Positions 2,694 through 62,906 of a stretch of DNA of 64,000 nucleotides are shown here, in pieces. Source of the stretch: Shigella phage ESh20; sequence record ON528730; one strand, given 5' to 3'. The position numbers were made by a program, and so were the translations under genes. The notes below the pieces were generated by a model. That model ran no database searches. It had not been told where the DNA came from and was given only the letters and a program-made list of their open reading frames with translations. Numbering within the stretch: the first letter of the stretch is position 1; each line of letters starts with the position of its first letter.

Positions 2694-3429
2694 TATAACC
2701 GACTCCTTTCAACCACTGCTTGAGGTTGATTGCATCATAATTCAATTTCGGATATGAGGTTACATGGAACTTCTCACCATCATAGTACACAATATCCGCA
2801 AGCCATAATCCATTCTCACGGCAGAAGTCTTTATCTGCTTTTGAAGAGATTGGTTCAACTTTAGAAAAGTTTTTAATGCCAAGACTACCAAGACTTCCAA
2901 TCAGTCCTTGGCAGATAACGCATGTGTCAGATGTTACCACAAATAATTCTTTTGCGTCAACTTCTGCAATAAAACTTTCAAGTTGAACTTTTGGAAGATT
3001 AGACTGTTTCATAATCTTACCATCAGACTTGCGAATAATCGCAAACCACTCTTTACCTTCAATAATTGATTGACGCAGGTAACATTCATCACCAGTACGT
3101 TTCTCAATATCAAACATTCGCTGTAAAGCTTCTTGATAGTCGTCTGTGTATTTGAGGTTGTTGTTTTCACAAACAGCCTTGATAGCACCATCATGGTCAT
3201 GCTGTGTCAGGAAAATTAAACCATCAAGTACATACTGCAAATCAGCTTGAGCATCAAGGGTCTCAACAGGGTCTTTGGCTTCTACTGCTGCGACTAACTC
3301 TCTAGCTTCTTCAAGCATACACAGAGATTGACTTTTCAGTGATTCCCAATACTCTGTGCTATATGGTTCTTTTGGGTTATTGCCACAACGTAGATTCCAA
3401 TTTCTTACGGATTCTCTGGAATTAAACAT
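2674..3429 (-). CDS. Hypothetical protein; N-terminal region weakly resembles MazG-like NTP pyrophosphohydrolase
   Basis: Acidic helical motif EEARELVAAVEAKDPVETLDAQADLQYVLDGL recalled as MazG-like; not verified. Confidence 0.35.
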   Translation of the reverse strand: MFNSRESVRNWNLRCGNNPKEPYSTEYWESLKSQSLCMLEEARELVAAVEAKDPVETLDAQADLQYVLDGLIFLTQHDHDGAIKAVCENNNLKYTDDYQEALQRMFDIEKRTGDECYLRQSIIEGKEWFAIIRKSDGKIMKQSNLPKVQLESFIAEVDAKELFVVTSDTCVICQGLIGSLGSLGIKNFSKVEPISSKADKDFCRENGLWLADIVYYDGEKFHVTSYPKLNYDAINLKQWLKGVGYNGFTEH

Positions 3430-3659
3430 TAAGCCTCCTTATCTTCAAACAACTTTTGTTGAGACTCAATATAGTCCATTCGTTCTTTGAGTTCAACACG
3501 TTTGCTTAACAGATGTTGAATTTGTGATTCCAGAGCATCCATCTCAGCTTCTGTAGCTGACTTAGCTTTACTGATAGTTTCCTTCAGTGCTGCTACGCCA
3601 CTCTGGATTTTAGAAACATGGTCATTTTTGATTTTATTAAACATTTTAAACTCTCTCAT
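3429..3659 (-). CDS. Hypothetical coiled-coil protein (76 aa)
   Basis: ORF track; start overlaps upstream stop. Confidence 0.45.
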   Translation of the reverse strand: MREFKMFNKIKNDHVSKIQSGVAALKETISKAKSATEAEMDALESQIQHLLSKRVELKERMDYIESQQKLFEDKEA

Positions 3660-4146
3660 TAAGTTTCATGATTTTAGTGATTCTCTTCTCAGCTTCATCA
3701 TAAGTCTCTTTTGTAAGAAACTTGATTGCTGCAATGTTCGCATTGTAGAAGAGTCGAAGCTGAGAGTCAATCCTTTTTGTCATGACGTCAAACTTATGTT
3801 GTAGGTTAGCTTCGCCATAAACCAAGCCACCTCGCGTATAGTAAGTCTGGATGATGTAGAAGTCAAACTCTTTTTCACCAAAAGATTCAATATCCTTCTT
3901 AATGTACTCAGAAGATGTTTGGTAAGTCATCCAATCACTTTCTTTTGTCACGACTTTACGTCTGGTCTTTCCAGCAACCTTTTTCTTAGTGACGTTATTA
4001 AATTGTTTCTTTCCAATATAATATTGTCCAGTTTTCTTACAGTATACTAAATAGACAAAACCAAAATAGTTAGCGGGGTCAATTTCCCCGCACAGTGAAA
4101 TCCAATGTCCATAAACAGGGCAATTTCCAAATCCTTTAATCTTCAT
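3646..4146 (-). CDS. Putative GIY-YIG family endonuclease
   Basis: N-terminal GFVYLVYCKKTGQYYIGKK resembles the GIY...YIG motif pair. Confidence 0.45.
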   Translation of the reverse strand: MKIKGFGNCPVYGHWISLCGEIDPANYFGFVYLVYCKKTGQYYIGKKQFNNVTKKKVAGKTRRKVVTKESDWMTYQTSSEYIKKDIESFGEKEFDFYIIQTYYTRGGLVYGEANLQHKFDVMTKRIDSQLRLFYNANIAAIKFLTKETYDEAEKRITKIMKLNERV

Positions 4147-17543: not shown

Positions 17544-17571
17544 TTGACATGAGTAACCTGACGGGTATACT
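17544..17571 (+). promoter_or_regulatory. Sigma70-like promoter
   Basis: TTGACA (17544-17549), 16-nt spacer, TATACT (17566-17571); followed by inverted repeat CTGACGGGT...ACCCGTCAG and RBS GGAGGT before ATG 17622. Confidence 0.55.
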
Positions 17572-17621
17572 GCCTATATAGAAAATTATATAGGAACCCG
17601 TCAGAAACCTCGGAGGTAGTT

Positions 17622-18004: not shown

Positions 18005-18208
18005 ATGAAGAAGAATATCTGTAGAACAGACTATGGTGAAGTGGTCGATGATGACGGAGTAGTTATTTACAGAGTTTGGGCTAATGATTTTGCAACAGTT
18101 GTAGAGTCTTTAGATAACTACATCAATGGGACTCGTGAAAACGTCAGAGCAACTAATCTTGATTCGTTAATAGACACTTCTCGAAAACGGAGAAAGAAAG
18201 ATGAATGA
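18005..18208 (+). CDS. Hypothetical protein (67 aa)
   Basis: ORF track. Confidence 0.45.
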   Translation: MKKNICRTDYGEVVDDDGVVIYRVWANDFATVVESLDNYINGTRENVRATNLDSLIDTSRKRRKKDE

Positions 18209-18500
18209 AGTCTTTGACCCATATGCACCTCAAGATTCTTGGGAGGCTGATAGAGAGGTTGAAATGGAGAGTTATATCTGTCCAATGGATATAGAAGAGA
18301 TGAAAGATTTTGTATCTTTCAGATTCTCTAAAGAGATTGAGAAGCTAAAACTTTCTCAGGCTCAAGTAGCAACTGTTTGTGAAATCTCACAGAGTCGTGT
18401 GTCAAATATCATTAACGACCCTCAAAAGATTTCTTTAGAGTACATGCTTAATGCTTGTACAAAACTTGGTGTAAATTTTAACTTAAGGCTGGCAGATTAA
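18201..18500 (+). CDS. Putative HTH DNA-binding protein
   Basis: Helix-turn-helix-like LSQAQVATVCEISQSRVSNI. Confidence 0.45.
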   Translation: MNEVFDPYAPQDSWEADREVEMESYICPMDIEEMKDFVSFRFSKEIEKLKLSQAQVATVCEISQSRVSNIINDPQKISLEYMLNACTKLGVNFNLRLAD

Positions 18501-18861: not shown

Positions 18862-19349
18862 AACTCAATTTATACTTTGGGTACAGTGTATTGCAAGGCA
18901 GCATACTGTCACTACCAAAGTCAGATTATCGTTGTGATTTAGGTTCTGTGAAACGTGCATCACACTTTAACAACAACATCTTAGGCTTGCAGACACTTCA
19001 CAGGTGGCTTGAGGAAGATGGACGGTTGAATGAATATCTTCACCAACTAGAACTAGCCAAAGAAGAAGGGCATATGGGTTGGAATTTACTACCCCATCTG
19101 TACAAACCTGCAAGTCCTATGGAGATACGCTATAACGAACAAGCAATTGATAGCTATAACAAATATAATATAACTATTGGCTCAAGACCTTGGAAGGAGT
19201 ATGGAAAGCTCCGTGAAATCATTATACAGACCATTGGAAAGCGTGTAGCAAAAGGTATTGCTTATGATGAAAAGGTTGACTGGAATACACAAAAGTGTAT
19301 AAAATTCTTCAAGTACGATAATGACAAAGATACTTTTGTAGAGGTTTAA
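18846..19349 (+). CDS. Hypothetical protein (167 aa)
   Basis: ORF track. Confidence 0.5.
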   Translation: MSLPLKLNLYFGYSVLQGSILSLPKSDYRCDLGSVKRASHFNNNILGLQTLHRWLEEDGRLNEYLHQLELAKEEGHMGWNLLPHLYKPASPMEIRYNEQAIDSYNKYNITIGSRPWKEYGKLREIIIQTIGKRVAKGIAYDEKVDWNTQKCIKFFKYDNDKDTFVEV

Positions 19350-20678: not shown

Positions 20679-21578
20679 ATGTCACAAGCAGATGTAAGCT
20701 ACAAAGCTATTTTAAACCATGTTTTATCAGTTGGTGAGTTGCGTAAAACCCGAACTGGCTCAGTGATTTCAACCTTTGCTCCACCTGAGTTCCGTTTTGA
20801 TATGCGTAGTGGATTTCCATTAATCACCTCAAAACAAACATTCATGCGTCAAGTCCTCGGTGAAGCATTATGGTTTATGAACGGTGAAAACCAACTAGGC
20901 CATTTGCGTTACAGAACTTGGGGAGAGAACGACGGAGAGCGTTGGACTATCTGGACAGATGATTTTAAACGTTGGTTGAAAACAACCTATGCTACAGAGA
21001 ATGATTGGCTGGAGGATGCTGGAGGAAGAATCTATGGAGTCCAATGGAGAGCCTACGAAGGTCATGGTGGCGTTGTTGTAGACCAGTTGAGTAATCTTGT
21101 AGAGAAGATGAGAAAGTCTCCTACAGACCGTTACATGCTCGTTAACGCATGGAATGCAGCAGATATCTCAAGTAACTCTATGGCATTAGCACCTTGCCAT
21201 GTACTTTTTCAGATTTATATCTCGAACACTAATGAGGTGGATTTGAAATGGTATCAGCGTTCTTGTGATACGTTCTTAGGGTTACCATTTAACATTGCTT
21301 CCTATGCCTTTATCTTGGAAGTGTTGTGTAAACTGACGGGATATACACCGCGATATCTGGTAGGGACTTATGGTGATACTCAAATCTATCAGAACCATAT
21401 GTCACAGGTTTTTCAGCTTCTTGGCAATGAAGAGTTCCCAGCACCTAAGTTTGAAATTCATCAAGATTTGAAGTCTCTTGAAGACTTGAGACATATGACA
21501 GCAGATGACTTCCTAGGTGGGTTGAAAGGGTATAAACATGCTGGTAAGATTGAAGCACCTTTATCAGTAGGTAAGTAG
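20679..21578 (+). CDS. Thymidylate synthase
   Basis: Conserved blocks RTGTGSVISTFAPPEFRFDM and catalytic-Cys region LAPCHVLFQIY. Confidence 0.9.
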   Translation: MSQADVSYKAILNHVLSVGELRKTRTGSVISTFAPPEFRFDMRSGFPLITSKQTFMRQVLGEALWFMNGENQLGHLRYRTWGENDGERWTIWTDDFKRWLKTTYATENDWLEDAGGRIYGVQWRAYEGHGGVVVDQLSNLVEKMRKSPTDRYMLVNAWNAADISSNSMALAPCHVLFQIYISNTNEVDLKWYQRSCDTFLGLPFNIASYAFILEVLCKLTGYTPRYLVGTYGDTQIYQNHMSQVFQLLGNEEFPAPKFEIHQDLKSLEDLRHMTADDFLGGLKGYKHAGKIEAPLSVGK

Positions 21579-21586
21579 AAACAAAA

Positions 21587-21615
21587 AAGGCTCCCGTAAA
21601 AAGGAGCCTTAGAAT
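21587..21615. terminator. Bidirectional hairpin terminator between convergent genes
   Basis: AAGGCTCC-cgtaaaa-GGAGCCTT flanked by A-run and T-rich tract. Confidence 0.6.
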
Positions 21616-21989
21616 TATTTCTTTTTAGTGCTTTGGGTATTTTGTTCTGTAATTGCTTGCAAAGCTGATACAGATTGTGCTAAGTTGTTAACACTGTCAG
21701 AGAACTTATCAAGGGTCTTAGTCAACTTAGCGTTTTCTCCCTTAACATTCTCTAGCTGAACTTTCTGGTTCTCCATCCCTAATTGTAGGAGCTTCATATC
21801 AGATTGTAAGTCACGAATAACTGAATAGTTACCTTTTGAGTAACCATCCAACTGCTGTAACTTATTTGTGATAGACACTTCCTGTTTACCATCAGAGACC
21901 TGCATTGTAGTGTACATCCCAATTACACTGAAAATACCTACAACGATTGCACCAATATTATTCTTAAAAGCATCTTCAAGCCACTTCAT
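21615..21989 (-). CDS. Membrane-anchored coiled-coil protein (possible i-spanin-like)
   Basis: N-terminal TM segment IGAIVVGIFSVIGMYTT then coiled-coil periplasmic region; function inferred from topology only. Confidence 0.3.
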   Translation of the reverse strand: MKWLEDAFKNNIGAIVVGIFSVIGMYTTMQVSDGKQEVSITNKLQQLDGYSKGNYSVIRDLQSDMKLLQLGMENQKVQLENVKGENAKLTKTLDKFSDSVNNLAQSVSALQAITEQNTQSTKKK

Positions 21990-22183
21990 TATTTCTCACC
22001 TTTAAAAGCCTTTTCCAAGGTATCTACAAATTCATCATCAATAGGTGTATCTGTTTTACTCGCAAGGTATCTTGCAAGCTTAAAGAACACTTTTTCAATC
22101 ATGTATTCACTGAGAAGAGAAAAAAGAAGCTTCCAAAAGAATGCCCCAAGGTTTTTCATGAGGATTGCTAGAATGGTTGGCAT
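21989..22183 (-). CDS. Small membrane protein (possible holin-like)
   Basis: 64 aa, hydrophobic N-terminus, charged C-terminus; own promoter upstream. Confidence 0.3.
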   Translation of the reverse strand: MPTILAILMKNLGAFFWKLLFSLLSEYMIEKVFFKLARYLASKTDTPIDDEFVDTLEKAFKGEK

Positions 22184-22232
22184 TTAATCACCTTACTTCT
22201 TGAGCCAAGATGGTGAGAATACCTACTAAGAA

Positions 22233-22261
22233 ATATTAACACCATCTTGACAGTTAGTCAA
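22233..22261 (-). promoter_or_regulatory. Sigma70-like promoter (minus strand)
   Basis: Minus-strand TTGACT, 17-nt spacer, TAATAT; overlapped by the 10-bp inverted repeat CAAGATGGTG (22206-22215) / CACCATCTTG (22241-22250). Confidence 0.5.
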
Positions 22262-22269
22262 CAAGGTAA

Positions 22270-24648
22270 TTATGCAGTTCTTACCCAAGCCATTAATTTA
22301 ATGTAAGTGTTAAGAACACTGAATGCTGCACCAGAACCAGTTGCACCAGTGTTACCACTGAATGTATGGTTGTGAGCACCAATACCTACACCGTGACCGT
22401 GAGCACCTACCCAACTTGTTCTTCCTGTCCAAGTTCTTGATGCGTAGAAGTTAACTGGTGTACCATAAGTGAACTGTGAACCAGTGTAACCTCTAGACGC
22501 TTGTGAACCTGAGATAGCAAACGCCCCACTTGCTGTATAAAAGCTGTTTGCGTCACTTCTGAAGAAACCAAAGTCACCAGAGATTTCCATGTTACCTCTG
22601 TCATGGTCGTGAGCACCTTGAGCGTCTGTGTACTTAGTACCATAATCAAAGGTAGTGGTTGTTCCAGAGAAGCTGTGAGTGTGCGCAGGGATATGACCAA
22701 CACTTAATGCAACTGTATCAGCACCACCAAGCCCTTTCACATCGGAACCATTTGCAGAACCAATTCTAATGGTTCTGTTTGCACCCTCTGTCAAGTAAGT
22801 CCAAGTAGTGCCTGGGAAAGCTGTATTTGGGTTGACATTAGAAGCAAAGAACGTCACAATACCAACTGGATACACTTTCTTAAGGTCTGTAGAATCAGTT
22901 ACCGCAGAGGCAATACGTTGGTCTACTTCAGCCTTGGTGTAAGCACCAAGTTCAGCAGGTGTAGGTTTAGCCTTATCTGTATAGATTTTAGACCAAAACT
23001 CTTCAAAACCAAAACTGTCCCTTGCCGTTCTATAGTAGATTCCACCATTTTTGTATTCGAACCTAAGCTGTGCAGAAGGTGTGGATGCGCCAATCCCAAG
23101 GTACATTTGGTAAACTAAGTGAGTTGAACCACCACTTGAACTTGTAACATTGTACAAACCTGTTTTTGCATTCCAAGCAACACCTGTTTCATCACCGACT
23201 TCGGTTCCCGTTCCAGATACACCAGACAACATATATCTTGAGTTTGCAGCAGATTGTGTGTAGTATCTTGAGTCAAAGTTTGACCAATCTGTAGGCTGAA
23301 CCTGACCGGTTACTGATACACTTCTGTTGAACATGAAAGTATCAGCAATTTCTAACTGAACACCACCGCTTGAGTAGTTATACAGGAATAGAGAATTTGG
23401 TCTACTACCTTCACCGTTACCAACATACCAACGTCTGTTGCCGTCTGCATTAGCACCAACAATATACAGTGGTGAATTAGCTGTCCCACTTTGCAATGTG
23501 AAAGCCGCATCTGTAGTAACAATAGTTTGTGGGTTAGTAAAAACGTTTGCAGCATTAGTTCTTGCAAGAACGTTCGTTAAAGAGCTTGGAACATATCTTG
23601 TATCAAAGTTTGCAAAGTCACTTGGTTTTACCTGACCAGATACATTAATAGCTTTGTTAAATGAAAACTCTGTAGCAATTTTCAAGTTAACATTTGTCAT
23701 CTGGTTTGCTAAAACAATCTCAGACTGCGTACCATCTGGTTGACCCACATACCAAGCACCTGTCCCAGCACTGTTGTAACCACGCATAAATAATGCAGCA
23801 TTCTCTGTAGCCGCTCTTAAGTTAAGTGCATTTCTATCTGCAATAACATAAGTCTTCCCGTTGAAGTTGTTAACCCCAACAAAGTTATTACTTGCATTAA
23901 GTCTTGCAAATCTCTGGTCAGCAGCAGTCTGTGTAAAGAATCTTGCATCAAGGTTGTTCCAGTTATTAGGCTGAACCTGACCATTGATTTCAAAGTTCTT
24001 GTCAACACTAACAGAGTTTGTACCAAGAGTCAACGTAGCACCTTTGCTGTTAACTAATGTAACATCAGTACCAGAAGTCAAGTTACCAACTGTGAATCTC
24101 AAAGCATTATTTGAATCTCTTGCTTCAATATATGCTCCACCATCTGGTAAGATGCTTTTAAGTGTTAAACCAACACCGTTGATATTAATGATTTGTCTTG
24201 CCAAGAAGGTATTTTCAGTTTCCTTCATAGCATATCTTGCATCATTTTCAGTATTAGTTCTCATACCTAATTCATTAGGAGATGGTTTATTAAGTGTGTG
24301 ATAAACTGTTGCAGACCTTGTGGCATCATTTACAGTTAATCTTAAAGCACTTGCATTAATTCTAAAGGTCTTGGCAGTGTCACCGAGAATAACTTCAGAA
24401 GAACCTGTTGGGTCTAATAAGTCTTTTCCACCGTATCTTAATTTGACGATGCCAAGATTCCCTGTCATATCCCCACCAGTTAGTTGTAAGAATCTTTCTA
24501 GTTTGAAAGAGGCAAGGAAATTTGCATAGGTCATTTTACGGTCTTCATCACCTAGCATATCAGACCTTTTGATAATTCTTAGGTGAAGTAAATCTTCTGA
24601 GCGAACTGTATCAATACTGTTTAGCTCACTTAGCTTATATTCAGCCAT
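22270..24648 (-). CDS. Tail fibre protein with His-x-His-rich C-terminal tip
   Basis: 792 aa; internal repeats NLDARFFTQTAADQRFARL / NFDTRYVPSSL / NFDSRYYTQSAANSRY; C-terminal HTHS, GAHDHD, GAHGHGVGIGAHNHT motifs. Confidence 0.75.
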   Translation of the reverse strand: MAEYKLSELNSIDTVRSEDLLHLRIIKRSDMLGDEDRKMTYANFLASFKLERFLQLTGGDMTGNLGIVKLRYGGKDLLDPTGSSEVILGDTAKTFRINASALRLTVNDATRSATVYHTLNKPSPNELGMRTNTENDARYAMKETENTFLARQIININGVGLTLKSILPDGGAYIEARDSNNALRFTVGNLTSGTDVTLVNSKGATLTLGTNSVSVDKNFEINGQVQPNNWNNLDARFFTQTAADQRFARLNASNNFVGVNNFNGKTYVIADRNALNLRAATENAALFMRGYNSAGTGAWYVGQPDGTQSEIVLANQMTNVNLKIATEFSFNKAINVSGQVKPSDFANFDTRYVPSSLTNVLARTNAANVFTNPQTIVTTDAAFTLQSGTANSPLYIVGANADGNRRWYVGNGEGSRPNSLFLYNYSSGGVQLEIADTFMFNRSVSVTGQVQPTDWSNFDSRYYTQSAANSRYMLSGVSGTGTEVGDETGVAWNAKTGLYNVTSSSGGSTHLVYQMYLGIGASTPSAQLRFEYKNGGIYYRTARDSFGFEEFWSKIYTDKAKPTPAELGAYTKAEVDQRIASAVTDSTDLKKVYPVGIVTFFASNVNPNTAFPGTTWTYLTEGANRTIRIGSANGSDVKGLGGADTVALSVGHIPAHTHSFSGTTTTFDYGTKYTDAQGAHDHDRGNMEISGDFGFFRSDANSFYTASGAFAISGSQASRGYTGSQFTYGTPVNFYASRTWTGRTSWVGAHGHGVGIGAHNHTFSGNTGATGSGAAFSVLNTYIKLMAWVRTA

Positions 24649-24693
24649 TTATAAATCCTCTTTCTAGGGGCTGTGTAGCCCCTTATAAAATAA

Positions 24694-35089: not shown

Positions 35090-36442
35090 TTATTCGTAAG
35101 CCACTGTGCCTTTCAAGTCAACATCCAAGATAGCCCCTGCAAGAATACCGTGGAAGGTAACGTCTTTCAGGATACGTGCTTTCTTATCTGCCAATGCAAC
35201 TTGTGAGGCTTTAGGAACAGTAACGGTGTAAGTTGACAAAAAGTTTCTGTTAACTGCTCGCTGAAGAGATGTTTCAATGACCTGACGAATACGGGTAATA
35301 CCAGTATCATCATAAGTAATCTTACCACCCTTCTGATTAATTAGCAAGTCTCTCAGAGATGTTTTCAAATCAGATTCAAGCCAATCAACACCACGTACAA
35401 TATCAATCCATTCACCACCAGAAGTGATACCTCTGCGCACTACAGGAACCCCTCCATCAAGGTCAATGAAGTTACAGCTACGGGTATCCAAAGCTGACTT
35501 CTGAATGCTTGTCAGTGGTCTCTGGTTAGCAGGTTGTAGGGATGCTGCAACACCAGTTAACTGAGCGTTACCCCAAGCAATTGAACCTGCATCGTATGGA
35601 GCACCATATGCAATGTAAGCCATTTCTGGGTAGTCAAACTCGGCTGTGTGATGCCACAAGCAAACTGTACGAGTGTACTTGCTCTTAGCTAACTGTGCCG
35701 GAACATCTGTTGCAGAGGTCAAATCAGTGCCTTGCAGAGCCTTAACGTCAGCATTAGCTGTGAAGAAAATCTTCTTACGAGCCTGAATCTCTGAAGCCAT
35801 TGCTAAGACAAACTGTTGAGTTCTGTCTTCTGCTGAGATGAAGTACCAATCTGTTGAATATGTCTCAATGGATGCCAGAGCAGCGGAAGCCGTGTCAGCA
35901 GTTGTTGCTGCAATAGACGTTGTAGGTGTAATAGATGTTACTTTTACGAAGTCATTATCACCAGCTTTAGTAATAATCATCGTCGCAGAAGCACCAGTAC
36001 CTGTTACACTAGCATTAACACCATCTTTAATTGTTGGGCTTGCTTCAATCTGTGATTTAAACTCATTCAAGACAATAAGTGCTGTGTCGTTTTCTTTTGC
36101 AGTGTATTGGAATGGCTGAGAAACACCACCACCGATAGCAACTGTCAATGAATATTCACTTCCTTCAGCCACTGTGTCAGGAATAGAAACAGTATATTGC
36201 ATAGTTCTTCTACCAATATACAGTTGAGTTACTTTTGGAGTTTGGCTCCATAGCTGTTTTGCAGCTTTATACGCAGCAGTACTTTCATCAAAGTCTTCAG
36301 CTACTTCTGTTAATGAAGTATAACCACGGATTCTTTCTTCAAAGTTATCTGTTGAAGCAAGGAATAATGGTAAACCAAAACCTTCTCTTGTAGTTCCTGC
36401 TGTGTTCAATGTAATATCTACATTAACAATTGGATTCCACAT
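35090..36442 (-). CDS. Putative tail sheath protein
   Basis: 450 aa preceding tube-sized gene and gp25/J-type baseplate; synteny only. Confidence 0.4.
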   Translation of the reverse strand: MWNPIVNVDITLNTAGTTREGFGLPLFLASTDNFEERIRGYTSLTEVAEDFDESTAAYKAAKQLWSQTPKVTQLYIGRRTMQYTVSIPDTVAEGSEYSLTVAIGGGVSQPFQYTAKENDTALIVLNEFKSQIEASPTIKDGVNASVTGTGASATMIITKAGDNDFVKVTSITPTTSIAATTADTASAALASIETYSTDWYFISAEDRTQQFVLAMASEIQARKKIFFTANADVKALQGTDLTSATDVPAQLAKSKYTRTVCLWHHTAEFDYPEMAYIAYGAPYDAGSIAWGNAQLTGVAASLQPANQRPLTSIQKSALDTRSCNFIDLDGGVPVVRRGITSGGEWIDIVRGVDWLESDLKTSLRDLLINQKGGKITYDDTGITRIRQVIETSLQRAVNRNFLSTYTVTVPKASQVALADKKARILKDVTFHGILAGAILDVDLKGTVAYE

Positions 36443-45430: not shown

Positions 45431-45454
45431 AAAAAAGACGGTGCAGAGACCGTC
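45431..45454 (-). terminator. Rho-independent terminator (minus strand) closing the tRNA array
   Basis: Minus strand GACGGT-ctctgc-ACCGTC followed by TTTTTT. Confidence 0.55.
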
Positions 45455-45611
45455 AAGGAGAAACCACAATGTATGCCAGAGACATACTGTATAGGTCTTC
45501 CCATAAAGTATAACTCTATAAAAAAGCCCTGTCTAAAAATACTCTCCGGTAGCGAAAGGGAGAATACTCATAGCAGGGCATAATAACTTTGAGAGAGATA
45601 TTAATATAAAT

Positions 45612-52225: not shown

Positions 52226-52301
52226 ATTAATTCTCTCTCGTTAGAATGTTTTGGTGAGACAGACTCTAGCGTTTAATTTAGAACCTGTCAACACCTTTTT
52301 A

Positions 52302-54293: not shown

Positions 54294-55174
54294 TTAAAGC
54301 AAAGACATATCCAGATTTTAAAGAGTTCGTTAAAAACTTTGTAGCGAATGTTAAAGCTGGCAAAAGATACGACTTCAGAAAGTATCAAGAGGCCGTTCTG
54401 CCTCTGACATATAGCTCACCGTGGCCTGAGTCTGATATTCCAGAAGTTACTGACTTCAATTACACACCAGACTACACAGTTCCATTTAGTGAAGAACTTT
54501 TATATTCAGTTGGTGCTCAGATGAGGACTGCTGACTTCTTCATGGACTTGCAGTATGCAATCATCAATGGGAAGGATGTTGACACAGTTTATTGTGAATG
54601 GTTGGCAAGGGTTAAACCTTTCTCCATGCTTAATGCAAAGTTGAAGGATGCAATCACACCTCCAGTTATTACACAGCAGCCAACTGACCAAACTGTTAAC
54701 GAGGGTGGAACACTTACACTTTCAGTTGTTGCTACTGGTGCAACTGGTTATCAGTGGAAGAAAGGTGCATCAAACATCTCTGGAGCAACCTCTGCAACAT
54801 ATACTAAGAATGGCGTAGTCCCTACTGATGCTGGCGCATACACCTGTGTAGTTTCTGGTGAAGGTGGCTCAAGTGTTAATTCCAACGCTGCCACAGTAAC
54901 TGTGAATGCACTGCCTGTGATTACACAGCAACCTACTAACCAAGAGATTACAGAGGGAGATACACTCACCCTTAGCATCGTAGCCACTGGTGCAACTGGT
55001 TATCAGTGGAAGAAAGATGATGTAGATATCCCTTCAGCAACATCTGCAACATATGAAAAGACACCGACTTCTAAAGCTGATGATGAAGGTACTTACTCTT
55101 GTGTTGTAACTGGTGTAGGTGGCTCAATCACATCCCAATCTGCCAAGGTGGTTATTAACGCAGTAGGAGGTTGA
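54290..55174 (+). CDS. Protein with two tandem Ig-like domains
   Basis: Two about 85-aa repeats each with ITQQPT...TLTLS..ATGATGYQWKK...GATSATY...Y.CVV.G.GGS. Confidence 0.6.
   Translation: MIKAKTYPDFKEFVKNFVANVKAGKRYDFRKYQEAVLPLTYSSPWPESDIPEVTDFNYTPDYTVPFSEELLYSVGAQMRTADFFMDLQYAIINGKDVDTVYCEWLARVKPFSMLNAKLKDAITPPVITQQPTDQTVNEGGTLTLSVVATGATGYQWKKGASNISGATSATYTKNGVVPTDAGAYTCVVSGEGGSSVNSNAATVTVNALPVITQQPTNQEITEGDTLTLSIVATGATGYQWKKDDVDIPSATSATYEKTPTSKADDEGTYSCVVTGVGGSITSQSAKVVINAVGG
54650..55160. repeat. Tandem duplication (about 255 bp x2) encoding the Ig-like domains
   Basis: Identical 31-mer ACTGGTGCAACTGGTTATCAGTGGAAGAAAG in both copies; approximate boundaries. Confidence 0.55.
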
Positions 55175-55641
55175 TAATGCAACTCTCAAGTAAAGGCTTA
55201 GAAGCCATTAAGTTCTTTGAAGGGCTTCGTTTAGAAGCCTATAAAGACTCTGCTGGAATCCCTACAATTGGTTATGGAACAATCCGTATCAACGGAAAAC
55301 CTGTAACAATGGGGATGAAGATTACTGCTGAACAAGCTGTTCAATATCTCCTTGCAGATGTTGAAAACTATGTAGGTGCAGTAAACAAAGCAATCAAGGT
55401 TCCAACTACACAGAACGAATTTGATGCACTTGTTGTAGAGACTTACAACATCGGTATCAATGCTATGCAGGATTCAACTTTTATCAAGCGTCACAATGCT
55501 GGTAACAAAGCTGGTTGCGCAGAAGCTATGCAGTGGTGGAACAAGATTACAGTGAATGGTCAAAAAGTAACTTCCAAGGGTCTACAAAATAGGCGTAGTT
55601 TGGAAGCCAAAATTTACCTTGACGCTGTTTATCCAAAATAG
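55171..55641 (+). CDS. Endolysin, T4-type lysozyme (GH24-like)
   Basis: N-terminal KGLEAIKFFEGLRLEAYKDSAGIPTIGYGT with catalytic Glu/Asp/Thr spacing. Confidence 0.85.
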   Translation: MIMQLSSKGLEAIKFFEGLRLEAYKDSAGIPTIGYGTIRINGKPVTMGMKITAEQAVQYLLADVENYVGAVNKAIKVPTTQNEFDALVVETYNIGINAMQDSTFIKRHNAGNKAGCAEAMQWWNKITVNGQKVTSKGLQNRRSLEAKIYLDAVYPK

Positions 55642-57763: not shown

Positions 57764-58504
57764 ATGGTTAAAGTTAAAGAGACAGACACAATTTACATTT
57801 ATGTAAAGGCTTCACCAGCCCAAAGAACTAAGGCATTTGTTACGTATGTGTCTGATAGCGGGGTTGTGTACTTCCGACCTATGAAGACATTACATTTCAA
57901 GATTTATCCAGCAACATCACTTGGTCCAGAAGCACACTTATGGGCTGGTAAAGTCTATTCGACCACTGATATTGAAAACTTAACCTTCACAGGAAGCTTC
58001 AGAAAGCTTCTGGGTATTTCTTTACAAGATACTGTGGTAGGGGATGAAGAAGAAACTGAAAAGGCAACTTTTGAGGCAACTCCGACTCTGAAGAAAGAGG
58101 CAACTCCAAAGGTTAGAACGATTGATGTTACTATAGAGGCTCCTACACACAGACTTGCAGATGTACCTGAGCAAGAGTCTCGATACCAAACTAAAGAAGA
58201 TGGTCATCAAACTCTGGTTGTAGATAACGTCAGAGATTACTTCAAGTATTTCTGTGATGCAAATCCACATAGTCATGCTTGGACTACACCACAAAAGAAA
58301 TTTAACTCCATGTTGACCAGCGCTTGTGAAGATGCTAAAAAGAATGTGGAAGAGTTAAAAGAAGCAATCAGTGTCACAGACCATGTGGTTAATAAGAATG
58401 ACATTGAGTACACAGTAAGAATGATGTTAAAAGCTGGTTTCACACCTTATCAGATTGCTGAAGAGATTCAAAGGCAATTCTACAACGCAATGGTGAAAGA
58501 ATGA
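57764..58504 (+). CDS. Hypothetical protein (246 aa)
   Basis: ORF track. Confidence 0.5.
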   Translation: MVKVKETDTIYIYVKASPAQRTKAFVTYVSDSGVVYFRPMKTLHFKIYPATSLGPEAHLWAGKVYSTTDIENLTFTGSFRKLLGISLQDTVVGDEEETEKATFEATPTLKKEATPKVRTIDVTIEAPTHRLADVPEQESRYQTKEDGHQTLVVDNVRDYFKYFCDANPHSHAWTTPQKKFNSMLTSACEDAKKNVEELKEAISVTDHVVNKNDIEYTVRMMLKAGFTPYQIAEEIQRQFYNAMVKE

Positions 58505-58719
58505 AAAAGTTTACAACTCTAGGTGAATACTGGAAGCTCTCTGTTTCTGAGCAGTACAGACGAGCTAAGAAGACTAAACAGTGCTATGGCAAGTTTGCCA
58601 GAGGTGATATTCTGGTATGTACTGAAGAGTCACTTAAGAATGTTACTCCAAGAGGTAAGACATTCCAGAGAATGATTGACAGAGAGTGGAATGCACGATT
58701 AAAGAGGATTGAACAATGA
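58501..58719 (+). CDS. Hypothetical protein (72 aa)
   Basis: ORF track. Confidence 0.45.
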   Translation: MKKFTTLGEYWKLSVSEQYRRAKKTKQCYGKFARGDILVCTEESLKNVTPRGKTFQRMIDREWNARLKRIEQ

Positions 58720-59222
58720 TTTATGAAGATTCAAGAGACCAGATTTCTTATGAGAAGTCAAGACACCATGTATCTTTCAAGATTGTGAAAGCAAACGGTG
58801 AAGAAGGAACTATTTCACACTTCGGAGGTGAAAATTGGTTTGGTACAGGATGCTTTGAAGGTTACAGCAGAGAGTATTTGAAAGCTTTCTACAGAGACTT
58901 CTCAGCAGACTACAATGAACTTATCAATCTTGAAAATAAGCGTAGAAATGCTGAGTATAACACCAGAGGATGGGCAGGTCTAGCAATTATGGTCTCTGTA
59001 GTTCTTGCTATGATTTGTATCATCTCTTTTGGAAGTGTGTACATGCAAGATTTAACCTTTAACCAAGCTGAGAAGAAGATTTCTGAGATTTGGTACTTGT
59101 TTGTACTGCCAATAGTTGGTATCATACTTTCATATTGGAGAATGACGACTTACAAGAAGAAGATTGTAGAGTCTGAGAAGAAGTTTGAAGAGGTAAGTAG
59201 AGAATGCAACCTAAAATTTTAG
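58716..59222 (+). CDS. Membrane protein with two predicted TM helices
   Basis: Hydrophobic segments WAGLAIMVSVVLAMICIISFG and IWYLFVLPIVGIILSYW. Confidence 0.5.
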   Translation: MIYEDSRDQISYEKSRHHVSFKIVKANGEEGTISHFGGENWFGTGCFEGYSREYLKAFYRDFSADYNELINLENKRRNAEYNTRGWAGLAIMVSVVLAMICIISFGSVYMQDLTFNQAEKKISEIWYLFVLPIVGIILSYWRMTTYKKKIVESEKKFEEVSRECNLKF

Positions 59223-59292
59223 TAATTTGTATCCGCTATGCTATTGCGGAAATGATTAACCAGAAAATCTTAAAAGATATCTCGGAGGGTAA

Positions 59293-59502
59293 ATGATTAG
59301 AACACCTGTCAAGCCTTTTGGCTTTAACACTCTGGAAGAGTTCAAAGAGTACCTTGAGAAAGGTTTCTACAACGAACAACCAGTAACAGTGATTAAATCT
59401 GACTTAGCACAGCTTGTTGACATTGCTATTGCAGCAACTGAGCCTAAGAAGAAAGAGAAAAAGGCTTCTTCAAAGAAAGATAAAGAATCTGTTGAAGAGT
59501 AA
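59293..59502 (+). CDS. Hypothetical protein (69 aa), Lys-rich C-terminus
   Basis: ORF track. Confidence 0.45.
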   Translation: MIRTPVKPFGFNTLEEFKEYLEKGFYNEQPVTVIKSDLAQLVDIAIAATEPKKKEKKASSKKDKESVEE

Positions 59503-59545
59503 TCTGTCAAGGGGTGTAAAAGCCCCTGTTTAGAGGTAGCGAAAA

Positions 59546-59839
59546 ATGAGTTTAAATTTGAAAGAAGGTCAGAAGGTTGTTATTGTTGACTACGACACAA
59601 AAAGCCTATTAACAAAAGGTGTGGTTACTGATATTGGTTCATCAGGAAATTACCCTATTGGTGTTAAAATTGATGAACCCTTTGTAATAGGTTCTGATGA
59701 CAAAGATGAGTTGTCTTTTCTCACAGGTGAGAGACTAACTTTCAACGGAGAATACCTATACCGTGGACATGTACATGAAGACCACAAGAAATGGGATTTA
59801 GAAGTGTTATCCGAAGAATACTATAACAAAAATTATTGA
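59546..59839 (+). CDS. Hypothetical protein (97 aa)
   Basis: ORF track. Confidence 0.5.
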   Translation: MSLNLKEGQKVVIVDYDTKSLLTKGVVTDIGSSGNYPIGVKIDEPFVIGSDDKDELSFLTGERLTFNGEYLYRGHVHEDHKKWDLEVLSEEYYNKNY

Positions 59840-59848
59840 GGCAAAACT

Positions 59849-60145
59849 ATGACTCCACAATCCAGAGGTGTTAAAGGTATCCACCCTCCAAAGGGTGGTT
59901 GGAAAGATAACACTTTCTACATCGTTGAAGTTGCTTACAAGCCACTTAACATGATTCATAAAGCGATGTTCTACACAGGGTTCTGTGATGATAATGGTGT
60001 ACCTGCTGGTTACAACTGGCTTATGAATGGTGGTTATGAAGAACTTTGCAATATTCAAGAAGCTTATTACTTGAAAGCTATTGCAGAGTTACCTGATGAG
60101 TTTCAAATTGAGAGAGATGAGGATTGGAAAGATGAAGAATGTTAA
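59849..60145 (+). CDS. Hypothetical protein (98 aa)
   Basis: ORF track. Confidence 0.5.
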   Translation: MTPQSRGVKGIHPPKGGWKDNTFYIVEVAYKPLNMIHKAMFYTGFCDDNGVPAGYNWLMNGGYEELCNIQEAYYLKAIAELPDEFQIERDEDWKDEEC

Positions 60146-60566
60146 AGAGACAGTACGCAAAGCTATGCTTAACAATGGTACTAAAGATGATATGTATAAA
60201 GATATCGTCGAAGACCTTGGTTGTTCAAGACATGCTGCAAAGGTTCTTCTTCATAGCTTTATCTGGGAGTGTTCAGAAGCTTACATGCAATCTGTAATAA
60301 CTGAAGGGCTTGATATGTCTCTACCTGAACGCTTCAAAGAAGAGACTAAGGCTAGTTCCATAAAGCTAAACACACTCTATATTGTAGAAACCGTTGATAC
60401 AGGTGAACCAGTAGGCACAATACATATTGAAAGTATGTGTGATGGTAAGTTCCTTGGTTATGGTGAAGCAAACGCATATAGTGCATTCTCAACCGCACAC
60501 TGGATAGTTGAAAATGATGGGTATATTCAGGTCAATGGTAAAAATACTTTCAAACTTAAGATGTGA
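60132..60566 (+). CDS. Hypothetical protein (about 144 aa)
   Basis: ORF track frame; start set to ATG 60132. Confidence 0.45.
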   Translation: MKNVKETVRKAMLNNGTKDDMYKDIVEDLGCSRHAAKVLLHSFIWECSEAYMQSVITEGLDMSLPERFKEETKASSIKLNTLYIVETVDTGEPVGTIHIESMCDGKFLGYGEANAYSAFSTAHWIVENDGYIQVNGKNTFKLKM

Positions 60567-61234
60567 TTATGGGACACCTACTGAAGAAGAGTTGGAAGAA
60601 CTTAACAGATATGGTTCCCCATCTGAAGAGGGAGAGAAAGAACTCAGAAGAATGGGAAGCAATTACTAAGAAATGTTTTAAGGATTTGATAGAGATGAAA
60701 AAGTTTGAACTTGAAAGAAAGTATCTGGTACTTAGCCTAGATGATATCAACACACATCTTGACGAAAGTGAGAAGTGGTCTTTAGACTTACTTGTTAATC
60801 GACTTAAGATGGAACGAGAAGATTCAGGTAAAGAGCCACTTGAAGGTGTCTTTGTCAAGAAGTCTTATCCGTTCTATGAAGATACTTTGAAGAAACTTGA
60901 GATGTATGTTAAGCAGCAGAACCGTAAAGAGTTCTCTATGATTTCTCTTGGTGGACAACAAATGCTGGTTATGGAAGATATAAACCCTAAGAGAACCAAC
61001 AAAGGTGTTTGTATCAAGGTCACAGGTAAAGAAGAATTTGTTGAATATGACATACTCAGACACATTATAGATGGTTTGGGTGTTGTACTGAACATGAATG
61101 AATACCATATTAGTTCACACCCGATTAAGGGTGACCAGATAATGATTCAGGTAAGAGAACGTCATAATGGGTTCACACACTTCTTCCAGACTTCTAAAAC
61201 TTCATTGCAAACTATGCTTAGTGAAGTGATGTAA
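60563..61234 (+). CDS. Hypothetical protein (223 aa)
   Basis: ORF track. Confidence 0.5.
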   Translation: MIMGHLLKKSWKNLTDMVPHLKRERKNSEEWEAITKKCFKDLIEMKKFELERKYLVLSLDDINTHLDESEKWSLDLLVNRLKMEREDSGKEPLEGVFVKKSYPFYEDTLKKLEMYVKQQNRKEFSMISLGGQQMLVMEDINPKRTNKGVCIKVTGKEEFVEYDILRHIIDGLGVVLNMNEYHISSHPIKGDQIMIQVRERHNGFTHFFQTSKTSLQTMLSEVM

Positions 61235-62842: not shown

Positions 62843-62864
62843 AAAAAAGCCCCATCTAAGGGGC
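62843..62864 (-). terminator. Rho-independent terminator (minus strand)
   Basis: Minus strand GCCCC-ttagat-GGGGC followed by TTTTTT, downstream of gene ending at 62907. Confidence 0.65.
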
Positions 62865-62906
62865 TGTAAAGGTGTCTGGGGCTATTTGCCCCGTTGCGGC
62901 GACTTG

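What the first reader, a model, noticed from the sequence alone, without database searches (positions are those of the whole stretch)
22184..22269. Promoter overlapped by a perfect 10-bp inverted repeat upstream of two small membrane-protein genes
On the minus strand a near-consensus promoter (TTGACT, 17 nt, TAATAT) is overlapped by the inverted repeat CAAGATGGTG / CACCATCTTG (22206-22215 and 22241-22250), arranged like an operator. The downstream genes encode a 64-aa membrane protein and a membrane-anchored coiled-coil protein, which could be holin/spanin-like. They lie 33 kb from the endolysin gene on the opposite strand.
Basis: partly seen in the sequence, partly recalled or inferred. Interest (0 to 1): 0.45.

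Follow-up and report, generated by a model that had tools for sequence, protein, structure and literature searches.

The report
Promoter buried inside an RNA hairpin
In a Felix O1-type phage, a conserved host-type promoter in front of two small membrane-protein genes sits inside a strong RNA hairpin, so the inverted repeat is more likely a device that tells read-through messages from promoter-started ones than a repressor-binding operator.

Summary
The window is an Ounavirinae (Mooglevirus) phage, 99% identical to Shigella phage Sf15. The promoter-like site (TTGACT, 17 nt, TGnTAATAT) and the perfect 10-bp inverted repeat are real; the second arm is 22240-22249, one base off.

Neither feature is rare alone. 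Their geometry is: the left arm ends at the -10, so the predicted start lies in the loop. Both are conserved far above synonymous sites in about 40 Felix-, Moogle- and Suspvirus genomes.

As sense RNA the repeat extends to a 12+7 bp hairpin (-23 kcal/mol, z -6.8). It is 7-11 kcal/mol weaker on the antisense strand.

The same architecture recurs at 17544-17604 and 19276-19339. At 17544 the arms take four unrelated but complementary forms in relatives, while the phage's HTH regulator keeps its recognition helix. That argues against a shared operator.

At the reported site, the hairpin's 3' half also complements the ribosome-binding region of the 64-aa gene (P 0.002-0.01), which could explain why its arms are frozen.

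Best reading: a transcript-origin-specific RNA switch, related to T4 gene e control but wired differently. Operator: not supported. The holin label for the 124-aa protein is topological only, and the spanins lie elsewhere. No transcription start has been mapped.

The parts
22270..24648 (-). Tail-fibre gene (792 aa). It is the last large gene of the late structural operon and the source of read-through transcripts entering the element.
   Evidence: ORF list; PHROG 4277 and Pfam gp37_trimer/gp37_C; Sf15 gp75 annotation.
22256..22261 (-). -35 hexamer TTGACT.
   Evidence: Mean pairwise identity 0.989 in 29 distinct relatives. It is TTAACT in only two loci.
22233..22241 (-). Extended -10, TGtTAATAT. 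It forms the junction of the outer and inner stems on the 5' side of the hairpin.
   Evidence: the scan reports TG before the second hexamer. One variant, TAACAT, among 16 unique sequences.
22204..22251 (-). Hairpin in sense RNA. Outer stem 22251-22240 pairs with 22215-22204 (12 bp including G-U pairs; the core is the 10-bp repeat). Then a 2x2 internal loop. Inner stem 22237-22231 pairs with 22224-22218. Apical loop 22230-22225.
   Evidence: -23.1 kcal/mol, z -6.76, 0 of 200 shuffles fold as well; consensus structure in 16 sequences; the inner closing pair is C-G in 8 and U-A in 3; antisense RNA only -12 to -16 kcal/mol.
22225..22228 (-). Predicted transcription start (A 22227 or G 22226, 6-7 nt after the -10), inside the apical loop. 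Transcripts from this promoter would lack the 5' half of the hairpin.
   Evidence: Inferred from the usual spacing between the -10 and the start. Not mapped experimentally.
22204..22224 (-). 3' half of the hairpin (AGGTATTCTCACCATCTTGGC). It is also complementary to the downstream translation-initiation region: GGUAUU pairs with AAUGCC, UCACC with GGUGA, and UCUUG with CAAGA.
   Evidence: Duplex energies are -16.4, -15.4 and -14.5 kcal/mol, against -6.5 +/- 2.4 for random genomic 20-mers (P 0.0016-0.0098). The control sites are not significant.
22181..22203 (-). Translation-initiation region of the 64-aa gene: CAAGA, SD AAGGTGA at 22194-22188, ATG at 22183-22181.
22260..22270 (-). ATTACCTTGTT, directly after the tail-fibre stop codon. 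In the predicted fold of the long transcript it pairs with the SD region. This basal stem is weakly conserved and uncertain.
   Evidence: Mismatches in L005, L008 and L027. The column pairs are mostly one-sided changes.
21989..22183 (-). 64-aa gene: hydrophobic N-terminal segment and a conserved KTDTPIDDEFV motif. PHROG 402, function unknown.
   Evidence: A homologue lies between the gp38-like adhesin and the T holin in Krischvirus.
21615..21989 (-). 124-aa gene: one N-terminal transmembrane segment plus a coiled-coil region. Its start overlaps the upstream stop as TAATG. PHROG 4038. Labelled 'putative holin' in relatives.
21587..21610 (.). Bidirectional intrinsic terminator that closes the unit, facing the thymidylate synthase gene.
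   Evidence: It corresponds to terminators t79 and t80 of Felix O1 (PMC3185647).
17544..17604 (+). Second instance of the same architecture. TTGACA, 16 nt, TATACT. Repeat CTGACGGGT/ACCCGTCAG, with the left arm ending at the -10 and the right arm 7 nt before SD GGAGG of the gene at 17622.
   Evidence: The arms covary in relatives.
19276..19339 (+). Third instance. TTGACT, 16 nt, TATAAA. Repeat ACAAAAGT/ACTTTTGT abutting SD AGAGG of the gene at 19351.
   Evidence: Unchanged in the two relatives examined.

Best explanation
The inverted repeat works as RNA, not as a protein-binding operator.

Anatomy. A host-type (sigma-70) promoter is built into the 5' half of a strong hairpin. The left arm fills the -35/-10 spacer. 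The -10 lies at the junction of the two stems. The predicted start lies in the apical loop.

Two messages therefore cover the 64-aa and 124-aa genes:
- Read-through transcripts come from the tail-fibre gene, the end of the late operon. They contain both halves and form the hairpin.
- Transcripts started at the embedded promoter contain only the 3' half.

The switch. At this site the 3' half is also complementary to the Shine-Dalgarno sequence and start codon of the 64-aa gene. So three segments are involved: 5' half (A), 3' half (B) and initiation region (C).
- With A present, A:B forms and C is predicted to be more open.
- Without A, B:C forms and C is predicted to be closed.

The most likely consequence is that translation of the two small membrane proteins depends on where the message started. 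The 124-aa gene is probably coupled to the 64-aa gene through the TAATG overlap. Expression would be low from the gene pair's own promoter and higher once late read-through arrives. The logic is that of T4 genes e, soc, 49 and I-TevI, but with a host-type promoter, an indirect (three-segment) connection to the ribosome-binding site, and probably the opposite polarity.

Shown: the sequence anatomy, conservation, strand asymmetry, recurrence of the architecture, covariation at the second site, and B:C complementarity.

Inferred: promoter activity, the position of the start, existence of read-through, any effect on translation and its direction, and the role of the proteins.

The general part (an RNA-level, transcript-origin-specific hairpin rather than an operator) I put at about 0.7. 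The specific three-segment translational switch I put at about 0.45.
For: Element and conservation
- The promoter and repeat are as described, and the -35, the -10 and both hairpin halves are conserved far above synonymous sites.
- The arms are invariant in about 40 Felixounavirus, Mooglevirus and Suspvirus contigs from IMG/VR and metagenomes.

RNA rather than DNA
- The sense RNA hairpin is -23.1 kcal/mol with z -6.8 and ranks 6th in the window.
- Sense folds are -23.1, -23.7 and -21.7 kcal/mol; antisense folds are -15.9, -12.8 and -12.2. The difference comes from conserved G-U pairs.
- The loop varies in length and sequence. The inner closing pair switches between U-A and C-G.

Recurrence of the architecture
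- Three of about 29 TTGAC[AT] promoter-like sites in the window carry a repeat of 8 bp or more in this geometry, each just upstream of an SD. The null is 0.0054 per site.
- At 17544 the same promoter (AAAGTTGTTGACAT, 15 nt, TATACT) has four unrelated arm pairs in relatives, all complementary: CCTGACGGGT, TAGTGGGT, TCCGGTAGTT and TTGGTGAGTA.
- The HTH regulator's recognition helix ISQ(S/A)RVSNI is conserved across those phages.

Link to translation
- The 3' half against the initiation region gives -14.5 to -16.4 kcal/mol, P 0.0016-0.0098 against random 20-mers. The other two sites give P 0.64-0.80. This fits frozen arms here and free covariation there.
- The predicted energy to open -18..+12 is 12.4-15.6 kcal/mol in the short transcript. 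It is 4.4-11.6 kcal/mol in the long transcript with a ribosome at the tail-fibre stop.

Context
- Erwinia (Roscha1) and Hafnia (Zyzzx) relatives carry an intrinsic terminator at the same position. This junction is therefore an expression boundary in the whole subfamily.
- Published RT-PCR in Felix O1 puts the ORF78 and ORF79 maxima at 25 and 5 min, but ORF76 and ORF77 at 60 min. That is consistent with a separate promoter (PMC3185647).
- The T4 precedent is documented in PMC3014915.
Against: - No transcription start, transcript or reporter data exist for any Felix O1-like phage that I could find.
- The arms at this site never vary, so there is no covariation in the main stem. Invariance is equally what a sequence-specific protein site would show.
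- The SD is not inside the hairpin, unlike the T4 cases.
- The fold of the short transcript is not significantly more stable than shuffles: z -1.0 to -1.9, with 5-15% of shuffles folding as well.
- Predicted SD accessibility does not separate long from short transcripts cleanly. A competing basal stem may also close the SD in long transcripts.
- The predicted polarity makes a conserved promoter that produces a poorly translated message. That is hard to rationalise.
- The duplex test was designed after seeing the pairing.
- The RT-PCR series is semi-quantitative and also calls several capsid and tail genes 'early'.
Confidence: 0.45

Rival explanations
1. The hairpin acts only on the upstream message. 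It would be a 3'-end stabiliser, an RNase III or RNase E processing site, or a decayed terminator for tail-fibre/late transcripts. The promoter is overlapped with it simply to save space. There is no control of translation of the small genes.
For: - Relatives have a true terminator at this junction.
- The 12+7 bp helix with an internal loop has the size of an RNase III substrate.
- At 17544 and 19276 the 3' arm shows no complementarity to the initiation region, and opening energies do not differ consistently. So the shared function of the class need not be translational.
- In wV8 the orthologue of the 17544 promoter is not followed by a gene at all.
Against: - It does not explain why the left arm always ends exactly at the -10, which excludes the hairpin from promoter-started transcripts.
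- It does not explain why the arms are frozen at this site yet free at 17544.
- It does not explain the significant complementarity of the 3' half to the SD and AUG.
- There is no U-tract after the hairpin.
- Some variants at 17544 are too short for RNase III.
Confidence: 0.25
2. The inverted repeat is a DNA operator. A phage (or host) repressor dimer or tetramer binds the two arms and shuts the promoter, for example the Cro/cI-type HTH protein encoded at 18201-18500.
For: - One arm lies in the spacer and the other at about +12 to +21, so a bound protein would block RNA polymerase.
- The arms are invariant in all relatives, and the HTH regulator's recognition helix is invariant too.
- An HTH_3/HTH_37 protein is encoded 4 kb away.
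Against: - Centre-to-centre spacing is 34 bp, against roughly 10-21 bp for known dimeric HTH operators.
- There is no other copy or half-site pair in the 64-kb window or in the remaining 24 kb of Sf15. All near matches lie in coding sequence.
- The outermost position is C in Mooglevirus and T in the other genera. That gives U-G in RNA but a mismatch in a DNA palindrome.
- The inner 'half-sites' AATATT and GGTATT are consistently asymmetric, giving G-U pairs.
- The analogous repeat at 17544 changes sequence four times with an unchanged regulator.
Confidence: 0.15
3. The promoter-like hexamers are not used. All transcription of the two genes is read-through, and the hairpin is a conserved structural element of the late polycistronic RNA. 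The -10-like TAATAT would be a by-product of the AT-rich inner stem.
For: - Promoter-like matches occur at the chance level in this AT-rich genome.
- The -10 lies within the inner stem, so its conservation is explained by the hairpin.
- The Felix O1 and wV8 authors did not list a promoter here.
Against: - The -35 TTGACT lies outside the stems, exactly 17 nt from the -10. It is 0.989 conserved while its flanks vary.
- The same geometry occurs three times.
- The RT-PCR timing of ORF78 and ORF79 differs from ORF77.
Confidence: 0.1

Closest known systems
T4 genes e (lysozyme), soc, 49 and I-TevI: hairpins that sequester the ribosome-binding site in long early transcripts, with a late promoter in the 5' strand of the hairpin (PMC3014915)
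   Same: A promoter is embedded in the 5' strand of a hairpin, so transcripts started there lack that strand. Two message populations of one gene differ in structure near the ribosome-binding site. In gene e the controlled gene belongs to the lysis system.
   Different: - Here the promoter is a host sigma-70 type, not a T4 late TATAAATA promoter.
- The read-through comes from late genes rather than early ones.
- The SD and AUG are not in the hairpin. They are complementary to its 3' half, which makes a three-segment switch.
- Predicted polarity is the opposite: read-through open, promoter-started closed.
- Nothing has been tested experimentally.
Three-segment alternative-pairing leaders (anti-SD / anti-anti-SD logic, as in attenuators and riboswitch expression platforms)
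   Same: A middle segment can pair either with an upstream segment or with the ribosome-binding region.
   Different: The choice would be made by where transcription starts (presence or absence of the upstream segment), not by a ligand, a stalled ribosome or a tRNA.
Lambda sib retroregulation of int
   Same: A hairpin exists only in transcripts of one origin and changes the fate of that message.
   Different: sib lies downstream of the gene and depends on antitermination and RNase III. Here the hairpin is upstream and depends on the transcription start.
Repressor operators overlapping sigma-70 promoters (lambda OR/OL, lac O1, LexA boxes)
   Same: Dyad symmetry overlapping the spacer and early transcribed region of a promoter.
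   Different: Arm spacing is 34 bp. The site is single-copy. The symmetry is better in RNA (G-U pairs) than in DNA. The sister element covaries without a change in the regulator.
Intrinsic terminators at the same junction in Erwinia phage Roscha1 and Hafnia phage Zyzzx (Ounavirinae)
   Same: A stable hairpin lies directly after the last tail-fibre or adhesin gene and before the same pair of small genes.
   Different: Those hairpins are followed by a T-run and have no embedded promoter with this geometry. The Felix, Moogle and Susp hairpin has no T-run.

Membership tests
Repressor operator overlapping a promoter | Dyad-symmetric half-sites spaced for a dimer (about 10-21 bp centre to centre) | tested here: not met
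   The 10-bp arms are 34 bp apart centre to centre, with 24 bp between them.
Repressor operator overlapping a promoter | Overlap with the -35, spacer, -10 or start site | tested here: met
   The left arm lies in the spacer at 22249-22240. The right arm lies at about +12 to +21.
Repressor operator overlapping a promoter | A cognate sequence-specific DNA-binding protein | not testable with these tools
   An HTH_3/HTH_37 protein is encoded at 18201-18500, but there are no binding data. At the sister site, the arms change while its recognition helix does not.
Repressor operator overlapping a promoter | Further copies of the site (regulon or autoregulation) | tested here: not met
   There are no other paired copies. 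Near matches occur only in coding sequence of the window and of the rest of Sf15.
T4-type transcript-specific RBS-sequestering hairpin (e, soc, 49, I-TevI) | A promoter within the 5' strand, so that its transcripts lack that strand | tested here: met
   The -10 is at 22238-22233 in the 5' half, and the predicted start at 22227/22226 is in the apical loop. The start is predicted, not mapped.
T4-type transcript-specific RBS-sequestering hairpin (e, soc, 49, I-TevI) | The SD and/or AUG form part of the 3' strand of the hairpin | tested here: not met
   The hairpin ends at 22204. The SD is at 22194-22188 and the AUG at 22183.
T4-type transcript-specific RBS-sequestering hairpin (e, soc, 49, I-TevI) | Upstream transcription reads into the hairpin | tested here: inconclusive
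   A same-strand tail-fibre gene ends 18 nt upstream with no terminator between. No transcript data exist.
T4-type transcript-specific RBS-sequestering hairpin (e, soc, 49, I-TevI) | Long transcripts are poorly translated and short ones well translated | tested here: inconclusive
   Predicted opening energies point the other way (short 12.4-15.6, long 4.4-17.2 kcal/mol). Predicted SD pairing is ambiguous.
Three-segment alternative-pairing RNA switch | The middle segment is complementary both to an upstream segment and to the translation-initiation region | tested here: met
   A:B is -23 kcal/mol. B:C is -14.5 to -16.4 kcal/mol, P 0.0016-0.0098. The controls are not significant. The short-transcript fold z is only -1 to -1.9.
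Intrinsic (Rho-independent) terminator | A GC-rich hairpin followed by a U-tract | tested here: not met
   The hairpin is followed by GGCUCAAGAAG, and the scan reports no terminator here. Relatives Roscha1 and Zyzzx do have one.
RNase III processing site (T7 R1.1-like) | About two turns of dsRNA, often with an internal loop; cleavage by RNase III | not testable with these tools
   The shape is compatible: 12 bp, a 2x2 loop and 7 bp. Cleavage is unknown. Some sister-site variants are too short.
Class III holin (T4 T-like) - 124-aa protein | A single transmembrane domain, N-in/C-out, with a periplasmic C-terminal domain | tested here: inconclusive
   There is one hydrophobic segment at about residues 11-30 (Kyte-Doolittle 1.62), followed by a coiled-coil-like region. 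Orientation was not predicted.
Class III holin (T4 T-like) - 124-aa protein | Sequence membership of a holin family, or lethal hole formation | tested here: not met
   No holin family matched in Pfam, PHROGs (phrog_4038, function unknown) or NCBIfam. Function is untested. The label in GenBank records is 'putative'.
Two-component spanin - 124-aa protein as i-spanin | A partner o-spanin lipoprotein gene that is embedded, overlapping or adjacent | tested here: not met
   There is no lipobox ORF within or after 21615-21989. Sf15 annotates the i- and o-spanin as gp17 and gp16, outside the window.

The most novel reading that the evidence does not exclude
Felix O1-type phages may use a class of 'promoter-in-hairpin' elements that make the fate of a message depend on where it started.

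The copy in front of the 64-aa/124-aa pair would be a three-segment switch. It would keep the putative holin module nearly untranslated from its own early or constitutive promoter. It would unlock the module only when RNA polymerase has read through the very last late gene, the tail fibre.

That would be a lysis timer wired to completion of late transcription. It would also bear on the open question of how these phages achieve temporal control, since Whichard et al. found no phage RNA polymerase and no protein that modifies host polymerase specificity.
Probability: 0.2. Interest if true: 0.7.

Novelty: new variant of a known kind. Interest (0 to 1): 0.5.

Why it matters
Whichard et al. (2010) found no phage RNA polymerase and no protein that modifies host polymerase specificity in Felix O1, and stated that its temporal regulation is unknown (PMC3185647). 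These phages are widely used for Salmonella and E. coli typing, biocontrol and therapy.

A conserved, recurring way of separating read-through from promoter-started messages would be one concrete post-transcriptional layer of that control. It sits at the genes most often proposed as the missing holin. It is directly testable with a handful of fusions and 5'-end mapping.

It also warns annotators that a dyad over a promoter in these genomes should not be read as an operator by default.

Tried and rejected
- Rfam scan of 21400-22500: only two sub-threshold chance hits, none at the element.
- Search for variants of the arms by pattern scans of IMG/VR and metagenomes: about 40 relatives, all with identical arms, plus a few unrelated chance hits. 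No covariation test is therefore possible at this site.
- RNAalifold on 16 unique sequences: it supports the hairpin, but the covariation term is only -0.56.
- Basal stem pairing the sequence after the tail-fibre stop with the SD: predicted in the window and wV8 but degraded in L005, L008 and L027, and it would be melted by a terminating ribosome. Not relied on.
- SD unpaired probabilities, long against short: inconclusive at all three sites.
- Candidate fourth site at 52291 (-): only a 6-bp repeat in Sf15, with a mismatch in the window. Dropped.
- Formal pair counting at 17544: MAFFT puts the Suspvirus arms one column out of register. The four arm families are therefore reported from the sequences themselves.
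- Literature searches for transcriptomes or mapped starts of Felix O1-like phages: none found.
- Genomic context of the 64-aa family in other phages: mixed. It is next to the T holin in Krischvirus but inside structural modules in Lahexavirus and Moazamivirus, and among uncharacterised genes downstream of recombination genes in a Vibrio phage. There is no firm functional inference.
- Structure prediction and the large protein searches were not used, because they would not bear on the regulatory element.
Full report
**Identity of the window.** The region 21500-22700 is 99.4% identical to Shigella phage Sf15 (Ounavirinae, Mooglevirus). It is 80-98% identical to about 260 Felix O1-like phages. 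Window coordinates coincide with Sf15 coordinates minus 21807. The minus strand from about 45.4 kb down to 21.6 kb is the structural (late) operon. It runs terminase, capsid, tail, baseplate, two tail-fibre genes, then a 64-aa and a 124-aa gene. A bidirectional terminator at 21587-21610 closes it, facing thymidylate synthase.

**Checking the observation.** Reading the minus strand:
- tail-fibre stop TAA at 22272-22270
- TTGACT at 22261-22256
- a 17-nt spacer
- TGtTAATAT at 22241-22233
- SD AAGGTGA at 22194-22188
- ATG at 22183

The repeat is CAAGATGGTG at 22206-22215 and CACCATCTTG at 22240-22249 on the + strand.

It extends to 16-nt arms at 14/16. As sense RNA it gives a 12-bp outer stem, a 2x2 internal loop, a 7-bp inner stem and a hexaloop over 22251-22204. 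The energy is -23.1 kcal/mol with z -6.76.

**Is it more than chance?**
- The parts alone are not. Perfect 10-bp repeats with short loops are expected about 4 times in such a window, and 2 are seen.
- Promoter-like matches are at the shuffled level.
- The combination is unusual. With the left arm ending at the -10 and a loop of 12-40 nt, random positions reach 10 bp with P = 0.0002.
- The fold is the 6th most stable 56-mer of the window on either strand.

**Conservation.** I used thirty IMG/VR loci and about 15 metagenomic contigs from Felixounavirus, Mooglevirus and Suspvirus. All share TTGACT, 17 nt, TAATAT and the arms AAGATGGTG/CACCATCTT. The apical loop, the spacer next to the -35, the stretch after the stop codon and the stretch before the SD all vary.

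| Region | Mean pairwise identity |
|---|---|
| Third-codon positions, tail fibre | 0.71 |
| Third-codon positions, 64-aa gene | 0.80 |
| -35 hexamer | 0.989 |
| Hairpin 5' half | 0.954 |
| Hairpin 3' half | 0.975 |

More distant Ounavirinae keep the gene pair between the tail-fibre module and thymidylate synthase. These are Erwinia phage Roscha1 and Hafnia phage Zyzzx. They have a canonical terminator (hairpin plus T-run) at this junction instead.

**DNA site or RNA structure?** Four observations favour RNA.

1. The extended helix uses G-U pairs, so it is strand-specific. Sense folds are -23.1, -23.7 and -21.7 kcal/mol, against -15.9, -12.8 and -12.2 for the antisense strand in three genera. 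As DNA the two strands fold equally, at about -10 kcal/mol.
2. The only change in the outer stem turns C-G into U-G (C in Mooglevirus, T elsewhere). The inner closing pair alternates between U-A and C-G.
3. The arms are 34 bp apart centre to centre. No other copy exists in the window or in the rest of Sf15.
4. The architecture recurs with different sequences:
   - At 17544-17604 (+), TTGACA, 16 nt, TATACT carries CTGACGGGT/ACCCGTCAG. The left arm ends at the -10 and the right arm lies 7 nt before the SD of the next gene.
   - At 19276-19339 (+), TTGACT, 16 nt, TATAAA carries ACAAAAGT/ACTTTTGT abutting an SD.
   - So three of about 29 TTGAC[AT] promoter-like sites show a repeat of 8 bp or more in this geometry. 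The per-site null is 0.0054, giving about 0.16 expected.

**Covariation at the 17544 promoter.** Its core (AAAGTTGTTGACAT, 15 nt, TATACT) is constant in relatives. The arms form four unrelated complementary pairs:

| Arm pair | Found in |
|---|---|
| CCTGACGGGT / ACCCGTCAGG | Sf15-type Mooglevirus |
| TAGTGGGT / ACCCACTA | Mooglevirus ESh22 |
| TCCGGTAGTT / AACTACCGGA | Suspvirus PC79-13 |
| TTGGTGAGTA / TACTCACCAA | Felixounavirus such as wV8 |

The only annotated DNA-binding protein is the 99-aa HTH_3/HTH_37 regulator at 18201-18500. It keeps its recognition helix ISQ(S/A)RVSNI across these phages. A common operator, or an operator of that regulator at 17544, is therefore unlikely. Pairing, not sequence, is what selection keeps there.

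**Why are the arms frozen at the reported site?**
- The 3' half (AGGUAUUCUCACCAUCUUGG) is also complementary to the initiation region of the 64-aa gene. GGUAUU pairs with AAUGCC, which includes the AUG. UCACC pairs with GGUGA, the SD.
- In addition, UCUUG pairs with CAAGA in Mooglevirus, and AUC pairs with GAU in the other genera.
- Duplex energies are -16.4, -15.4 and -14.5 kcal/mol, against -6.5 +/- 2.4 for random genomic 20-mers (P 0.0016-0.0098).
- The same test at the other two sites gives P 0.64-0.80.
- A segment that must pair with two partners cannot drift, particularly when one partner is fixed by the SD, the start codon and the Met-Pro codons. A segment with one partner can. This matches invariance here and covariation at 17544.
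- Caveats: the duplex test was post hoc. The whole short-transcript fold is not significantly better than shuffles (z -1.0 to -1.9).

**Likely mechanism.**
- The -10 lies in the 5' half and the predicted start (22227/22226) lies in the apical loop. Promoter-started RNA would therefore lack the 5' half.
- Read-through RNA from the tail-fibre gene would form the hairpin. No terminator intervenes. The hairpin between the two fibre genes has no T-run here.
- This is the anatomy described for T4 genes e, soc, 49 and I-TevI (PMC3014915).
- Two differences stand out. The SD is outside the hairpin. Predictions also favour the opposite polarity. Opening -18..+12 costs 12.4-15.6 kcal/mol in short RNA. 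It costs 4.4-11.6 kcal/mol in long RNA when a ribosome occupies the tail-fibre stop.
- Simple SD-unpaired probabilities are ambiguous, and a poorly conserved basal stem may also close the SD in long RNA.
- I therefore commit to a transcript-origin-specific RNA switch and leave the polarity open.
- Published RT-PCR for Felix O1 has ORF79 maximal at 5 min and ORF78 at 25 min, but ORF76 and ORF77 at 60 min. That fits an independent promoter, although the series is noisy.
- The authors listed five sigma-70-like promoters, none of them here, and stated that temporal control is unknown.

**The proteins.**
- The 64-aa product (PHROG 402, function unknown) has a hydrophobic N-terminal segment and a conserved KTDTPIDDEFV motif.
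- Homologues occur in Erwinia and Hafnia Ounavirinae at the same place. In Krischvirus a homologue lies between the gp38-like adhesin and the T holin. In Lahexavirus and Moazamivirus it lies inside structural modules.
- The 124-aa product (PHROG 4038) has one transmembrane segment and a coiled-coil-like remainder. It matches no holin family.
- The 'putative holin' label in relatives follows Center for Phage Technology announcements of a class III holin by topology.
- Spanins are annotated elsewhere in Sf15 (gp16 and gp17). The lysozyme is at 55171-55641.
- Neither small protein was detected in Felix O1 virions.

**Verdict.**
- The operator interpretation is not supported.
- The holin suggestion is plausible but unproven, and the spanin suggestion is rejected.
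- The element is best described as a promoter embedded in a conserved RNA hairpin. It is one of at least three in this genome. This copy additionally carries an anti-ribosome-binding-site function in its 3' half.
- It is a new variant of a known kind of phage post-transcriptional control, of moderate interest until a transcription start is mapped.

Noticed in passing
window 17544-17604 (+): A second promoter-in-hairpin (TTGACA, 16 nt, TATACT; arms CTGACGGGT/ACCCGTCAG) lies upstream of the operon that includes the HTH regulator. The arms take four different complementary forms in relatives while the promoter core stays constant.
   Followed up: yes
window 19276-19339 (+): A third instance lies inside the 3' end of the 167-aa gene. 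TTGACT, 16 nt, TATAAA carries the repeat ACAAAAGT/ACTTTTGT, which abuts the SD of the gene starting at 19351. It is unchanged in the two relatives examined.
   Followed up: partly
window 36014-36027 (-): An exact 14-nt copy of the 5' arm plus inner stem (AAGATGGTGTTAAT) lies inside the DUF3383 tail gene. About 5e-4 such matches are expected by chance in the window. Its meaning is unknown.
   Followed up: no
window 45525-45580 (-): The most stable local fold in the window (-28.1 kcal/mol), followed by a T-run. It lies between the tRNA cluster and the first late gene and is probably a strong terminator guarding entry into the late operon. A second terminator-like hairpin follows at about 45440-45460.
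   Followed up: no
window 62260-62930 (both strands): A cluster of GC-rich hairpins and repeated CTTGTTA motifs in a non-coding stretch. It could be iterons, an origin or a regulatory region.
   Followed up: no
L163 (wV8 58500-61000), about 2380-2501 and 870-1060: In Felixounavirus the orthologue of the 17544 promoter is followed not by a gene but by a further 10-bp hairpin and a GGT-rich direct-repeat region (annotated DR_4, present twice). The window's phage lacks this arrangement at the equivalent place.
   Followed up: partly
L035 (Escherichia phage kvi, Krischvirus) 2998-3927: A homologue of the 64-aa protein (RB49 'Dc5') sits between the gp38-like receptor-recognition protein and the T-type holin. 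This mirrors the order tail fibre, small protein, putative holin seen in the window.
   Followed up: partly
window 24649-24693 (-): The hairpin GGGGCTacacAGCCCC lies between the two tail-fibre genes. It is annotated as a terminator in Felix O1 and wV8, but in this phage it has no T-run, so read-through is likely.
   Followed up: no
window 52233-52291 (-): TTGACA, 17 nt, TAGAGT lies upstream of the 471-aa gene, with a short repeat ending at the SD. The repeat is 6-7 bp in Sf15 and is interrupted by a mismatch in the window. It may be a decayed member of the same class.
   Followed up: partly
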